Virus record (IMG/VR): IMGVR_UViG_3300045044_000056
Coordinates: 11,262 to 75,261 of that record
DNA: 64,000 bases
Origin: a virus
Reading direction: 5' to 3' (one strand)
Positions 808 to 23,613 of this stretch are shown piece by piece. A model generated the notes under the pieces. That model worked only from the letters and a program-made list of their open reading frames with translations. It was not told the DNA's origin and did no database searches. Made by a program: the position numbers and the translations under genes. Numbering within the stretch: position 1 is the first letter of the stretch; every line of letters starts with the position of its first letter.

Positions 808-1901
808 TTACGAGCCACGATAGTCGAGAGTTCCAAAAACCCGGAGCGAGCCACGCCGGATGAGAGCACCATGCTTAAGGAGCGAGCCATAATCGCTGAG
901 AGCACCAAGCCTTAGGAGCGAGCCAATCCTGCGGAGAGCACCAAGAACGATGAGCGAGCCACTCGGCCTGAGAGCGCCACAAGAACGGAGCGAGCCACAG
1001 CCTGCGAGGGCACCATAAAGTGAGAGCGAGCCATGAGCTGTGAGAGCACCAAAGTACGGGAGCGAGCCAACCCGGGAGAGAGCACCAAGAACTGCGAGCG
1101 AGCCATTGTCTTGGAGAGTACCAAAAGTCAGGAGCGAGCCATAAGCCTGGAGAGCACCATCGGCGAGGAGCGAGCCATCGCGGAATGAGAGCACCATGCA
1201 GAGCGAGCGAGCCCATAAATCGGTGAGAGCACCAAACCCGACGAGCGAGCCAGTCCGCGCGAGAGCACCAATGCGGAAGAGCGAGCCATTGATTTGAGAG
1301 AGCACCATATCCGGTGAGCGAGCCACCGCGCATGAGAGCACCAGAAGCGTGGAGCGAGCCAGCTCGGAGGAGAGCACCAAAAACCGGGAGCGAGCCCAAT
1401 GTAATGAGAGCGCCACAAGTGAGGAGCGAGCCATTGTTTGAGAGAGCACCACGTGAAGAGAGCGAGCCAATCGTGCGGAGAGCACCAAAAAGGACGAGCG
1501 AGCCAATGCCTGAGAGAGCACCATAAGGGGCGAGCGAGCCATTGTGTTGGAGAGCACCAAGCGTGTGGAGCGAGCCATTGATGCAGAGAGCACCACGATC
1601 CCAGAGCGAGCCCTTAGGTCGGAGAGCACCAGAGAGCATGAGCGAGCCATCAGCCGAGAGAGCACCATAAGTGATGAGCGAGCCATACTACTAGAGAGCA
1701 CCAGAACCACGGAGCGAGCCAACTTCGGAGAGAGCACCAGATCAGCTGAGCGAGCCAAGGTGAACGAGAGCACCAAAGAAGCTGAGCGAGCCAATTTGAC
1801 AGAGAGCACCAAACCGTCAGAGCGAGCCAAAAGGCTTGAGAGCACCAGCATTGGAGAGCGAGCCAAAAGCAGCGAGAGCACCAAAACTCAAGAGCGCCCT
1901 G
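808..1901 (+). ncRNA. TIGR-like dual-repeat guide array 1 (29 full 36-nt units plus a degenerate leader unit)
   Basis: GAGCGAGCCA and GAGAGCACCA alternate, separated by 8-nt variable spacers, from 844 to 1891 (29x36+4 nt; three small indels near 1180, 1215 and 1295). Degenerate unit at 808-843; terminal partial repeat at 1892. Confidence 0.88.
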
Positions 1902-1905
1902 AACA

Positions 1906-2688
1906 ATGATCTCCTACTCGCATAACTTCGAAGACGTCATCCTGGCCCGCGCGCTCGGCTCGATCACCCACGGCTTCTACATCGACGTCGGCGCCGCAAC
2001 CCCCATCCACTCCTCAAACACCTACGCCTTCTATGAGCACGGCTGGTGGGGCCTCGTCGTCGACCCGCTGTTCCGCCTGTGGCCGCAGTACCGCGCCGAG
2101 TGGGAACGTACCCGCCCGCGCGACCTCCTCGCCGCCGTCGCCGCCGGTAAAGAAACTGGCCACACCGAGTTCTGGGTCGCCGGCCATATGCAGTGCTCTA
2201 CCGCCTCGCCCGAAACCCTCGCCTACTTCCGCAAGCTCGGCTCCCAGATCCCCGACCACGGAACCATCGTCAACGTCTACAGCCTCACCACCATCCTCGA
2301 CGCCACCGCAACCTCAGTCGCAGCCGCAGGCGGCCCCATCCACCTCCTCACCGTCGATGTCGAAGGCATGGAGCTCGACGTCGTCCAAGGCCTCGATCTC
2401 TCCCGCTACCGCCCCTGGATCATCCTCGCCGAAGTCACCAAGCCCGGCACCATCGAGCTGGCACCCCACGCCGCCCCGCTCTACCAGTACCTCTGCGACA
2501 AGGATTACGTCCGCGTCCTGTTCGACGGCACCAACGAGTTCTACCTCGATATCGAGCACATCGAGCTGGCGAAACACTTCAAGCTCCCACTCAACTGCCA
2601 CGACAACTTCAAGCTCTACCGCGAAGTGCTGCTCGAAAACCGCATCAAAGAACTGGAAGAAATCACCAACCCAGCCTTCGGACGATGA
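1906..2688 (+). CDS. FkbM-family SAM-dependent methyltransferase
   Basis: YSHNFED, FYIDVGA, SNTYAFYEHGWWGLVVDP and LLTVDVEGMELDVVQG motifs. Confidence 0.9.
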   Translation: MISYSHNFEDVILARALGSITHGFYIDVGAATPIHSSNTYAFYEHGWWGLVVDPLFRLWPQYRAEWERTRPRDLLAAVAAGKETGHTEFWVAGHMQCSTASPETLAYFRKLGSQIPDHGTIVNVYSLTTILDATATSVAAAGGPIHLLTVDVEGMELDVVQGLDLSRYRPWIILAEVTKPGTIELAPHAAPLYQYLCDKDYVRVLFDGTNEFYLDIEHIELAKHFKLPLNCHDNFKLYREVLLENRIKELEEITNPAFGR

Positions 2689-2909
2689 ACATGGACCGCG
2701 AAACAATCCAGACGTTGCTTGATCTGCTCAACCCGTTGCATGATGAGCTTGATCGGCAAACATATGATGAGAAGGTGCACGAGAACTTCGATGCTCCCCG
2801 CGACCGTGAGTACGAGGTCACGATCACGGAAGCGCATGAGCGCGATCTAACTCAAGCTGTCCTGATCCTAGAAGATCGTCTGCGACAGGCGAGGGCTACG
2901 AGTTCATAG
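2685..2909 (+). CDS. Hypothetical protein (74 aa)
   Basis: ATGA overlap with the FkbM stop; MNMDRETIQTLLDLL... is the plausible part of track ORF 2193-2909. Confidence 0.6.
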   Translation: MNMDRETIQTLLDLLNPLHDELDRQTYDEKVHENFDAPRDREYEVTITEAHERDLTQAVLILEDRLRQARATSS

Positions 2910-3198
2910 AGGCATAAAGGCCCGTGGACATTGATAGAACAGGAGTGGGCGATCCATGGGTGGGCTCCTTTAATTTTGAGCGAGCCGGTTGACTACTAGA
3001 ATAGCCACGATCAGCGCGACCATAACCGCCGCCTTCCATGCGCTGTCCCACGCCACCCGACGCGGCACACCCTGATAGCCGTAGGCAACGGCGTAGCGTT
3101 GCAGACCGGCAAGCGCGGCGATTGCTGCGATCCAGAACATTCAGGCCCTCTTTTATGCCGCGCGGCTACTTCTCCTTTGGGCTGAGCGTCCCCCCCCT

Positions 3199-3795
3199 TC
3201 ACGCCGCCAGCGCCCGCCGCACCGACGCAACACTCACCCCAAACCGCTCCGCTACCCCGCGCAACCCAACACCCCCAGCCCCATACGCCGCCCTGATCTC
3301 TAACGCCTTCGCCGCCCCAATCTCAACAGGCCGACCAATCGCCTTCCCAGATCGCGTCCCCTTCTCCCGCGCCCGCGCCATCCCCGCATTCACTCGCTCC
3401 CGGATGATCTCCCGCTCAAACTCCGCAAATACACCCAACATCTGAAACATCGCTCGCCCTGCCGGCGTCGTCGTGTCCAACCCCTGCTGGTGTAAATACA
3501 GCCCAGTCCTCGTCGCCCGTAAGTGCAACAAAAACGTCGTCAGATCCTGCAAACTCCGACCCAGCCGGTCCACCGACCACGCCATCACCAAATCAAACTT
3601 CCCCCGGCTCGCATCCTTGTGCAGCCGGTCAAACCCAGGCCGCCGCTCGCGACCCTTCGCCCCACTGATCCCAAGATCCTCATAAACCCCAACCACCTCG
3701 TGCCCCAGCCGCGCCGCAACCGCCCGCAGCTCCCGCTCCTGGTTCTCCGTCGTCTGATCCTTCGTGCTCACCCGCAAATACAGTACCGCGCGCAT
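3199..3795 (-). CDS. Serine recombinase (resolvase/invertase family) with C-terminal HTH
   Basis: YLRVST (catalytic Ser), ISGAKGRERRPGF, SVDRLGRS, FAEFEREIIRER. Confidence 0.95.
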   Translation of the reverse strand: MRAVLYLRVSTKDQTTENQERELRAVAARLGHEVVGVYEDLGISGAKGRERRPGFDRLHKDASRGKFDLVMAWSVDRLGRSLQDLTTFLLHLRATRTGLYLHQQGLDTTTPAGRAMFQMLGVFAEFEREIIRERVNAGMARAREKGTRSGKAIGRPVEIGAAKALEIRAAYGAGGVGLRGVAERFGVSVASVRRALAA

Positions 3796-3966
3796 ACCCT
3801 ACCTCCTCCAAATATGGGACCCATTGGCGTATTAGGGTACCGTTTCGCCAGAAGGTCCAACCATGGTTCCAGGAGGGCCCCGAGCGCGCGGCCGACTGGG
3901 GCCCCTGGAAACCTACCGTTTTGGGAATGAACATTGCTCCGCGCACCCTCCAATATGGGCGCGCGC

Positions 3967-22965: not shown

Positions 22966-23003
22966 AGGGCCATACCCCCACCCCCACCCCTTTGGACCCT
23001 TGG

Positions 23004-23029
23004 GGGCCGCCTTCGGGCGGCCCTTTTTT
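23004..23029 (+). terminator. Intrinsic terminator
   Basis: GGGCCGCC-TTCG-GGCGGCCC followed by TTTTTT. Confidence 0.85.
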
Positions 23030-23053
23030 CTTCGGCCTGGGGCTCAATAGGAA

Positions 23054-23097
23054 GGCCGCTGGTGAGCTACGCATCCTCCCGCGCTCCACCAGCGGCC
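23054..23097 (-). other. 11-bp stem-loop downstream of array 3 (possible 3' boundary of the TasA-array transcript)
   Basis: GGCCGCTGGTG (23054-23064) pairs with CACCAGCGGCC (23087-23097). Confidence 0.35.
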
Positions 23098-23306
23098 CCT
23101 CCCCCACCCCAACCAATAGACGGCCGCCGCTAGCCGGGCGGCAGGCTCTTCCGCAGTTTGCTGGCGAGCGTCCGCATGGCGTCGGCCTTGCGGTCGTGTG
23201 GCCCGGCCGTACGTGGCTCGGCACGCCCATAGGAATCGTGTCGGCTCGCTCGGGATACGAGCGCTTCGACGATCAACTCCACTTCACCGATCGATAGGTC
23301 GATTTG

Positions 23307-23613
23307 CACGCTCGCTCCCTATGGTGCTCTCTGGTTCGATGGCTCGCTCAGCGCTTCGCTCATTTCTTTTGGAACTCTCTCACAACGTGGCTCGCTCTGG
23401 CTTTGTGGTGCTCTCAGCGATTATGGCTCGCTCACGACCTTTGGTGCTCTCTCGCCGGATGGCTCGCTCACCATGTTTGGTTCTCTCATCCATGTTGGCT
23501 CGCTCATCAATTTTGGTGCTCTCCCTCGATGTGGCTCGCTCCTGCTCAATGGTGCTCTCAAGACCGCTGGCTCGCTCACCATTCATGGTGCTCTCTACTG
23601 TCGTGGCTATGTC
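23307..23613 (-). ncRNA. TIGR-like dual-repeat guide array 3 (about 8 units, distal end degenerate)
   Basis: On the + strand TGGCTCGCTC and TGGTGCTCTC alternate every 18 nt from 23370 to 23595; the first repeat overlaps the TAG of the Nop-domain gene. Confidence 0.9.

What the first reader, a model, noticed from the sequence alone, without database searches (positions are those of the whole stretch)
808..23613. Half-spacers are shuffled between the three arrays
Seen: 844-889 is identical to 5472-5517 (46 nt, unit CGCCGGAT/TGCTTAAG). The next unit keeps spacer B (AGCCTTAG) but differs in spacer A (TAATCGCT vs GAAACCGG). TAATCGCT is also spacer A of unit 6 in array 3, paired with a different B. 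The variant loop repeat GAGAGTTCCA occurs in array 1 (826) and array 3 (23370-23379). First spacers are CGATAGTC (array 1) and CGACAGTA (array 3). TAAATCGG is a B spacer in array 2 but sits in an A slot, with extra bases, in array 1 (about 1215). Near-duplicates exist within array 1 (ATCCTGCG/ATCGTGCG; a TTG... family). Inference: guides diversify by recombination or gene conversion at the repeats, producing new A+B combinations, rather than by CRISPR-like acquisition. No Cas1/2-like genes are visible.
Basis: partly seen in the sequence, partly recalled or inferred. Interest (0 to 1): 0.75.

Follow-up and report, generated by a model that had tools for sequence, protein, structure and literature searches.

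The report
Guide halves copied between TIGR arrays
A soil phage carries three arrays of tiny two-part guide RNAs (a known TIGR-Tas system). Whole guides and single guide halves have been copied between and within these arrays at the DNA level, which is a first concrete clue to how such arrays evolve, a question the field lists as open.

Summary
The window is part of an 85-kb temperate soil phage with three dual-repeat TIGR arrays, one orphan unit and a single nuclease-less Tas (TasA-like) gene.

**In this genome**
- Arrays 1 and 2 share a 46-nt block and then a 28-nt block. The two blocks are separated by one fully replaced 8-nt A spacer.
- The allele in array 1 recurs in array 3 with a different B partner.
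- That makes four identical same-slot 8-mers against about 0.05 expected.
- Independent assemblies from other soil samples reproduce the layout.

**In 65 non-redundant viral contigs with the same repeats**
- The pattern is general: 61 within-genome same-slot identities against 1.2 expected.
- Copies are whole units (A+B, 11 events) or single halves (33 events). None is B plus the next A.
- Flanking repeat variants travel with the copies.
- Two contigs 99.9% identical over 5.8 kb differ essentially only by one replaced half-spacer.

**Reading**
Half-guide re-pairing by short, repeat-bounded DNA copying is real. Over 90% of spacers are unique and are not shared between unrelated phages, so an unknown source of new spacers remains.

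The system is a known kind. The array dynamics are new to the literature I could search. This scan noted shared half-guides once before, in a CPR stem-loop TIGR array.

The parts
811..1896 (+). TIGR array 1, about 30 units. Layout: 5'-truncated edge CGAGCCA, then edge GAGCGAGCCA + 8-nt spacer A + loop GAGAGCACCA + 8-nt spacer B, ending in a 3'-truncated edge GAGCG. No tas gene lies next to it.
5367..5584 (+). TIGR array 2, 6 units. Its truncated first edge overlaps the TGA stop of the upstream ORF (ends 5368).
23309..23607 (-). TIGR array 3, about 8 units. It starts on the TAG stop of tasA and has degenerate units near its 3' end.
23607..24464 (-). Tas gene, 285 aa. It has a Nop-like domain and no recognisable nuclease domain (TasA-like).
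   Evidence: PDB 9mty, E 1.9e-9, over residues 72-194; the depositors name it only an IS116/IS110/IS902 C-terminal-domain protein, and I take it to be the TasR of Faure et al. TasH 21kl, E 4.9e-8. Pfam Transposase_20 (weak) and phrog_4285, E 1e-43.
844..889 (+). 46-nt block identical to 5472-5517: edge, CGCCGGAT, loop, TGCTTAAG, edge. This is one whole guide unit.
5472..5517 (+). The array 2 copy of the 46-nt block.
   Evidence: a contig of run X6 spans 5472-5652
890..897 (+). A spacer TAATCGCT. It is the replaced half inside the duplicated two-unit block; array 2 has GAAACCGG at 5518-5525.
898..925 (+). 28-nt block identical to 5526-5553: loop, AGCCTTAG, edge.
23406..23433 (-). Array 3 copy of edge + TAATCGCT + loop, followed by a different B spacer (CAAAGCCA).
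826..835 (+). Rare loop variant GAGAGTTCCA: 6 occurrences among the loop repeats of the 65 contigs, 2 of them in this genome.
23370..23379 (-). Second copy of the rare loop variant GAGAGTTCCA, with unrelated spacers on both sides.
1197..1224 (+). Irregular unit: B spacer TGCAGAGC, edge variant GAGCGAGCCC, and a 10-nt A spacer ATAAATCGGT that contains TAAATCGG.
1352..1361 (+). Edge repeat at which strain variants (L109, L111) switch from different upstream units to the same downstream units.
1856..1865 (+). Edge repeat before which strain L108 carries one extra whole unit (AAAGCGAG / CAGGATCG). The surrounding 3 kb is otherwise identical.
4569..4605 (-). Orphan single guide unit: GAGCCA, CTGCCTTT, loop, CACATCAA, GAGCG.
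15263..16216 (+). YqaJ-like exonuclease.
16086..17249 (+). RecT-family annealing protein; the domain lies at 16332-16901.

Best explanation
The locus is a dual-repeat TIGR-Tas system of a temperate soil phage. One TasA-like gene presumably serves three arrays and an orphan unit that all use the same repeats.

The arrays change by short, non-reciprocal, DNA-level copying of guide modules, with ends that fall in the repeats. Most patches start or stop in an edge repeat. They carry either a whole 36-nt unit (A + loop + B), occasionally two units, or only one half (A or B), ending in the loop repeat. A half-length patch re-pairs an existing half-guide with a new partner and so makes a new A+B guide.

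In this genome the simplest history is a two-unit block copied between arrays 1 and 2, followed by replacement of one A half. One allele of that half is also present in array 3.

**Shown:** the sharing, its slot specificity, the boundary rule, the co-transfer of repeat variants, whole-unit gains or losses, and one isolated half replacement between near-identical genomes.

**Inferred:** that the process is gene conversion or template switching at the 10-nt repeats, the direction of each transfer, and any role of the phage's RecT/YqaJ.

**Not explained:** where the many unique spacers come from.
For: **System identity**
- 36-nt units, repeats ending in CCA, truncated edges at both array ends.
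- A Tas homologue adjoins array 3.

**This genome**
- 4 identical same-slot 8-mers against about 0.05 expected, arranged as a 46-nt and a 28-nt block around one replaced half.

**Family of 65 non-redundant contigs with the same repeats**
- Within-genome same-slot identities: 61 against 1.17 expected. Cross-slot: 4 against 0.88.
- Independent events: 16 A only, 17 B only, 11 A+B, 0 B+A, one of three slots and one of four. Edge repeats: 58 breaks and 2 crossings. Loop repeats: 34 breaks and 14 crossings. Fisher p 2e-4. A+B against B+A, p 0.001.
- Repeat variants flanking shared halves are identical in 74% of cases against 43% in the null (p < 2e-4). The internal loop variant is identical in 12 of 12 unit copies against 5.0 expected.
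- Partners of shared halves are mostly unrelated: 22 of 29 differ at 4 or more of 8 positions.
- No same-array event duplicates the units in between, which argues for short patches rather than unequal crossing-over.

**Near-identical genomes**
- K13 and K95 are 99.9% identical over 5.8 kb. Their arrays share 39 of 40 spacers, and the one that differs is a B half with 6 of 8 letters changed.
- G000 and L108 are identical over 3 kb apart from one extra whole unit.
- L111 duplicates two units together with their edge variant.
- Point-mutation rates are equal in spacers and flanks, 0.55% against 0.54% by my count of 3 spacer differences among about 20 in the 3,675-nt alignment with L109. Mutation therefore cannot give 5 to 8 changes in one half and none in the other.
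Against: - No donor, recipient or intermediate has been observed directly. All evidence is comparative.
- For the K95 allele no exact donor exists in the held records. There is only a one-mismatch relative in the same array, so that replacement could be de novo writing rather than copying.
- The repeats flanking TAATCGCT in this genome are consensus and therefore uninformative.
- Ten nucleotides of homology is short for classical homologous recombination.
- Slot labels are ambiguous in a few contigs whose loop variant is equally close to the edge consensus.
- Selection on functional guides could contribute to the excess of whole-unit copies.
- The contigs are short-read metagenome assemblies.
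Confidence: 0.7

Rival explanations
1. Independent acquisition from targets. Identical units arise because the same protospacer was captured twice. Identical halves arise because different targets share a half-site. No DNA is exchanged between arrays.
For: - Most spacers are unique and some acquisition route must exist.
- The K95 allele has no exact donor in the held records.
- Faure et al. (PMC12045711) report that A and B have symmetric, swappable roles, so guides are target-defined.
Against: - Shared halves and units carry the same rare repeat variants far more often than random pairs from the same arrays.
- Sharing is almost only same-slot, 61 against 4. Symmetric targets captured in either orientation should give swapped slots as often.
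- Multi-unit blocks keep their order and their edge variants: the G000 two-unit block, K14, L111.
Confidence: 0.12
2. A dedicated, still unknown TIGR adaptation machinery writes guide modules in situ at edge repeats, at half-unit or unit resolution. Intragenomic copies are a by-product, for example self-derived substrates, rather than general recombination.
For: - Edge repeats are near-obligate boundaries.
- There is a clean in-situ replacement of a single half in otherwise identical genomes.
- A single whole unit is inserted in otherwise identical DNA.
- The unit that moves equals the mature 36-nt tigRNA described in PMC12045711.
Against: - No candidate enzyme: no Cas1 and no reverse transcriptase in the 92%-complete record.
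- The published surveys find no conserved accessory gene (PMC12045711; 10.64898/2026.09.09.750476).
- Changes show no polarity along the array.
Confidence: 0.13
3. Chance matches, assembly chimeras, or old duplicates that diverged by point mutation.
For: - 8-mers are short.
- One-mismatch pairs in this genome are not above expectation.
- Seven of 29 partner halves differ at 3 positions or fewer, so some shares are diverged unit duplicates.
Against: - Identical pairs exceed expectation about 50-fold.
- Independent assemblies from several samples agree.
- The point-mutation rate in spacers equals that of the flanks.
Confidence: 0.05

Closest known systems
Dual-repeat TIGR-Tas systems, TasA class (Faure et al., Science 2025, PMC12045711; Xu et al., bioRxiv 10.64898/2026.09.09.750476)
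   Same: [quoted passage not shown]
- Repeats ending in CCA.
[quoted passage not shown]
- A Nop-domain Tas protein next to an array, and a phage host.
   Different: - Spacers are 8 nt and repeats 10 nt, against the typical 9 and 9.
- There are three arrays plus an orphan unit for one tas gene. The largest array (30 units) lies 22 kb from it.
- The papers state that array expansion and spacer origin are unknown. The copy rules described here are not in them.
CRISPR array dynamics (Cas1-Cas2 acquisition, spacer loss and duplication by repeat recombination)
   Same: Arrays of repeats and short variable guides. Units are lost, duplicated and rearranged through the repeats. Strains differ in array content while their flanks are identical.
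   Different: - No Cas1.
- No leader-end polarity of change.
- The guide is split, and a single half can be exchanged.
- Repeats are only 10 nt.
Short-patch gene conversion in contingency and antigenic-variation loci (from general knowledge, not tested here)
   Same: Non-reciprocal transfer of short cassettes between paralogous repeats, creating new combinations from an existing repertoire.
   Different: Patches here are 18 to 36 nt, bounded by 10-nt repeats. No silent donor archive or dedicated initiator is known.
Shared half-guides noted earlier by this scan in a CPR stem-loop TIGR array (e1-2754930)
   Same: A few half-guides within one TIGR locus are copies of one another.
   Different: That locus has a different array architecture (stem-loop, TasR, bacterial chromosome). 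I did not re-examine it.

Membership tests
TIGR-Tas (dual-repeat) | Two distinct short repeats that alternate, separated by spacers of about 9 nt, in units of 36 nt | tested here: met
   Period 36. Edge GAGCGAGCCA and loop GAGAGCACCA, with 8-nt spacers variable at all eight positions.
TIGR-Tas (dual-repeat) | Both repeats end in the box C motif CCA and begin with a shared box D-like motif that covaries between edge and loop | tested here: inconclusive
   Both repeats end in CCA and both begin with GAG. The published box D is UG; here the base before GAG is variable.
TIGR-Tas (dual-repeat) | [quoted passage not shown] | tested here: met
   All three arrays do so: CGAGCCA, GAGCCA or GCCA at the start and GAGCG at the end. 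The same holds across the family.
TIGR-Tas (dual-repeat) | An associated Tas protein with a Nop domain | tested here: met
   The 285-aa protein matches solved 9mty (E 1.9e-9; I take it to be TasR) and TasH (E 4.9e-8) over the Nop-like region.
TIGR-Tas (dual-repeat) | The array is transcribed and processed into 36-nt tigRNAs that bind Tas | not testable with these tools
   No RNA run held the stretch (one search lists DNA runs only).
TasA subclass | No RuvC or HNH nuclease domain | tested here: met
   Only 71 residues precede the Nop-like region, against 153 in the 331-aa chain 9mty. Pfam reports no nuclease family. No structure was predicted.
CRISPR-Cas | Cas1 (and Cas2) adaptation genes, or a single repeat of 25-36 nt | tested here: not met
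   No Cas1 in the 85-kb record, with controls positive. The repeats are two alternating 10-mers. Cas2 was not searched for.

The most novel reading that the evidence does not exclude
TIGR arrays have their own adaptation route that writes guide modules in situ, anchored at the edge repeat. It works at the resolution of a single 8-nt half-guide and can write sequences new to the genome. The copies seen here would be its footprint, and the isolated half replacement between K13 and K95 a direct example.
Probability: 0.25. Interest if true: 0.9.

Novelty: new member of a known kind. Interest (0 to 1): 0.66.

Why it matters
Both primary papers on TIGR-Tas name the origin, expansion and maintenance of the arrays as an open problem. 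They note that the split guide makes any acquisition scheme hard to imagine.

The rules found here are concrete and testable:
- The 36-nt unit bounded by edge repeats is the main mobile module.
- Single halves can be exchanged or replaced in place.
- Repeat variants travel with them.
- Change shows no polarity along the array.

These rules predict what a passaging experiment or a survey of all catalogued arrays should show. They also indicate that new guide specificities can arise by re-pairing existing halves.

For people who use TIGR arrays as tools, the result warns that multi-guide arrays may rearrange at their repeats.

Tried and rejected
- **Megablast of 25 kb against INPHARED phages:** no match.
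- **Two scans of metagenome contigs** with array-specific patterns, meant to collect strain variants: nothing found.
- **Search of the protein collection with the spurious ORF across array 1:** no hit at E 1e-20.
- **Look-ups of flanking ORFs with TTG starts:** not on record. Shorter ATG versions worked.
- **Self-targeting.** I searched composite sites (reverse complement of A, 0 to 2 nt, then B) and four control geometries, with up to one mismatch, in each contig's own DNA. Only two one-mismatch hits appeared, both in G000, against two in the control geometries across 1,118 units. I read this as chance.
- **The 172-aa ORF upstream of array 2 and the 146-aa ORF beside array 1:** neither is related to Tas.
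- **DGR-type mutagenesis:** rejected. There is no reverse transcriptase, and the K13/K95 change alters A, T and G positions alike.
- **Unequal crossing-over as the main route:** rejected. No event duplicates the intervening units.
- **A possible half-share in run X4** (B spacer GAACCACG paired with GGCGGCCA): this rests on a 29-nt contig alignment and I do not count it.
- **Parts of array 1 without cover in runs X6, X7 and X9**: not used as evidence.
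Full report
**What is there**

The window (GC 0.60) is bases 11262-75261 of an 85,183-bp IMG/VR virus record rated 92% complete. It has no close relative among deposited phages.

It holds three arrays with a 36-nt period. Each unit is an edge repeat GAGCGAGCCA, an 8-nt spacer A, a loop repeat GAGAGCACCA and an 8-nt spacer B.
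- Array 1: 811-1896, plus strand, about 30 units.
- Array 2: 5367-5584, plus strand, 6 units.
- Array 3: 23309-23607, minus strand, about 8 units.

Each array begins with a 5'-truncated edge and ends with the 3'-truncated edge GAGCG. This is the published anatomy of dual-repeat TIGR arrays (PMC12045711).

Array 3 starts on the stop codon of a 285-aa gene (23607-24464, minus strand). The central region of its product matches two solved structures: chain 9mty (E 1.9e-9), which I take to be the TasR of Faure et al., and TasH (E 4.9e-8). Only 71 residues precede that region, and no nuclease family is found. I call it TasA-like.

The ORFs beside arrays 1 and 2 are unrelated to Tas. One Tas presumably serves all arrays.

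A solitary guide unit lies at 4569-4605 on the minus strand.

The phage looks temperate. It encodes a CI-like repressor, a tyrosine integrase, a serine invertase, a YqaJ exonuclease and RecT. It has no Cas1 and no reverse transcriptase.

**The observation**

- 844-889 equals 5472-5517 (46 nt, one whole unit with both edges).
- After one A spacer that differs at 5 of 8 positions (TAATCGCT against GAAACCGG), 898-925 equals 5526-5553 (28 nt).
- TAATCGCT with both flanking repeats recurs in array 3 (23406-23433), paired with a different B.
- The rare loop variant GAGAGTTCCA occurs in arrays 1 and 3. It is seen 6 times among the loop repeats of 65 contigs, twice in this genome.

Among 84 eight-letter spacers there are 4 identical same-slot pairs. 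Letter shuffles give 0.047, and the empirical rate between unrelated contigs gives about 0.05. Counted as two events, this is still about 1e-3.

One-mismatch pairs (3 against 0.93) and the cross-slot TAAATCGG match are not significant alone.

The layout is not an assembly artefact.
- A Logan contig is identical over 860-5501.
- JGI and Logan contigs of other samples carry the same first units of array 1.
- Four runs carry the same array 3.
- A contig of another run spans 5472-5652.

**Is it general?**

A scan of IMG/VR for edge-N8-loop found 98 stretches on 76 contigs with the same repeats. I parsed 140 arrays with 3,564 spacers, 2,696 of them distinct, and kept 65 non-redundant contigs.

Spacers of G000 match those of other contigs only at chance level. 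Within genomes the picture is different. Identical same-slot 8-mers number 61 against 1.17 expected from the rate between unrelated contigs. Cross-slot identities number 4 against 0.88.

Broken into maximal runs and counted as independent events, there are:
- 16 shares of A only,
- 17 shares of B only,
- 11 shares of A+B, that is a whole unit,
- none of B plus the following A,
- one run of three slots and one of four.

Edge repeats are boundaries 58 times and are crossed twice. Loop repeats are boundaries 34 times and are crossed 14 times (Fisher p 2e-4). A+B against B+A gives p 0.001.

No event within a single array duplicates the units lying between the two copies. These are short patches, not products of unequal crossing-over.

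**DNA-level copying or repeated capture?**

The repeats vary slightly, and that variation is informative. Repeats flanking a shared half are identical in 74% of cases, against 43% for random same-slot pairs of the same arrays (p < 2e-4). The loop inside a copied unit is identical in 12 of 12 cases against 5.0 expected.

Copies keep their orientation, although A and B are reported to be functionally swappable. Blocks of two units keep their order.

The partner of a shared half is usually unrelated: 22 of 29 differ at 4 or more of 8 positions. Seven are close and are probably diverged unit duplicates.

All of this favours copying of contiguous DNA over independent capture of similar targets.

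**Near-identical genomes show the events singly**

- Contigs K13 and K95 are 99.9% identical over 5.8 kb. Their arrays share 39 of 40 spacers, and the one that differs is a B half: AAGTAGAG against TGGACACG, in the unit whose A is TTAGACCG. The held records contain no exact donor. The only relative is TGGACAAG, sixteen units away in the same array.
- A strain of the present phage (L108) is identical over 769-3750 except for one extra whole unit, inserted before the last unit of array 1.
- Other strains (L109, L111) share the array downstream of the edge repeat at 1352 but differ upstream. One duplicates two units together with their edge variant GAGCGAGCCC.
- In L109, point differences are as frequent in spacers (3 in 545 nt) as in flanks (about 17 in 3,130 nt), by my count. 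Mutation therefore cannot explain halves that differ at 5 to 8 positions beside halves that are identical.
- Related but more distant arrays (K21/K77, K76/K96, K20/K54, K56/K70) are mosaics of identical stretches, whole-unit indels, moved units and replaced units, with no polarity along the array.

**Interpretation**

The most likely account is short, non-reciprocal, repeat-bounded copying. A patch begins or ends at an edge repeat and carries a whole unit, or stops in the loop repeat and carries only a half.

In this genome, a two-unit block was copied between arrays 1 and 2. One A half was then replaced, and one allele of it is shared with array 3. The direction cannot be told.

Whether the process is template switching at the 10-nt repeats, annealing promoted by the phage's RecT/YqaJ, or a dedicated system is not shown. 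The strong preference for edge repeats, which are also where the RNA is cut into 36-nt tigRNAs, is unexplained.

Shuffling cannot be the source of diversity. Over 90% of spacers are unique to their genome, so new sequences enter by an unknown route.

**Targets**

A search for composite sites in each contig's own DNA gave no enrichment.

**Comparison and novelty**

The locus passes the tested defining features of dual-repeat TIGR-Tas, TasA class. Two features stay open: the box D motif is inconclusive, and tigRNA processing could not be tested. The locus is therefore a new member of a known kind, with 8-nt spacers and a multi-array layout.

The papers that I could search state that the way TIGR arrays gain spacers is unknown. 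None of them reports copying of units or halves.

This scan recorded shared half-guides once before, in a CPR stem-loop array (e1-2754930). I did not re-test that record.

Noticed in passing
window 4569-4605 (minus strand); hairpin at 4613-4644: A solitary, complete guide unit (truncated edge, CTGCCTTT, loop, CACATCAA, truncated edge). It sits just downstream of a strong terminator-like hairpin and just upstream of the 150-aa gene at 4093-4545.
   Followed up: partly
window 30768-30784 (+) and G000:C1:3795-3811 (-): Two one-mismatch matches to composite guide sites (reverse complement of A, one base, then B), for units CCGCGCAT/GAAGCGTG and CCCCAGTT/GGCAATGG. The family-wide scan shows no enrichment, so these are probably chance.
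   Followed up: yes
window 3199-3795 (minus strand): A serine invertase/resolvase gene lies between arrays 1 and 2. Metagenome contig depth rises about five-fold over 3356-3546, presumably from conserved resolvase genes of other organisms. No inverted target sites were looked for.
   Followed up: no
L108 against window 3750-4721: A strain identical up to about 3750 diverges from about 4300 and is unrelated beyond about 4700. This is a mosaic boundary between the invertase and array 2, so array 2 may be missing or different in that strain.
   Followed up: partly
family loci L009-L106 (array starts): Most arrays of this repeat family begin directly on the stop codon of the upstream gene (TAA, TGA or TAG followed by GCCA), as arrays 2 and 3 do here. 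Array 1 does not.
   Followed up: partly
family loci L009-L106 (edge repeats): The last base of the edge repeat varies often (about 210 of roughly 1,400 edge repeats end in CCG, CCC or CCT instead of CCA). It may belong functionally to the spacer.
   Followed up: no
window 818-825 and 23596-23603: The first A spacers of arrays 1 and 3 differ at only 2 of 8 positions, whereas first spacers are not conserved across the family. The two array starts may be paralogous.
   Followed up: partly
window 13632-20297: A lysogeny and recombination module: CI-like repressor with S24 peptidase (13632-14426), YqaJ (15263-16216), RecT (16086-17249) and tyrosine integrase (19182-20297). An MT-A70 methyltransferase (11480-12352) and an FkbM methyltransferase (1906-2688) are also present.
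   Followed up: partly
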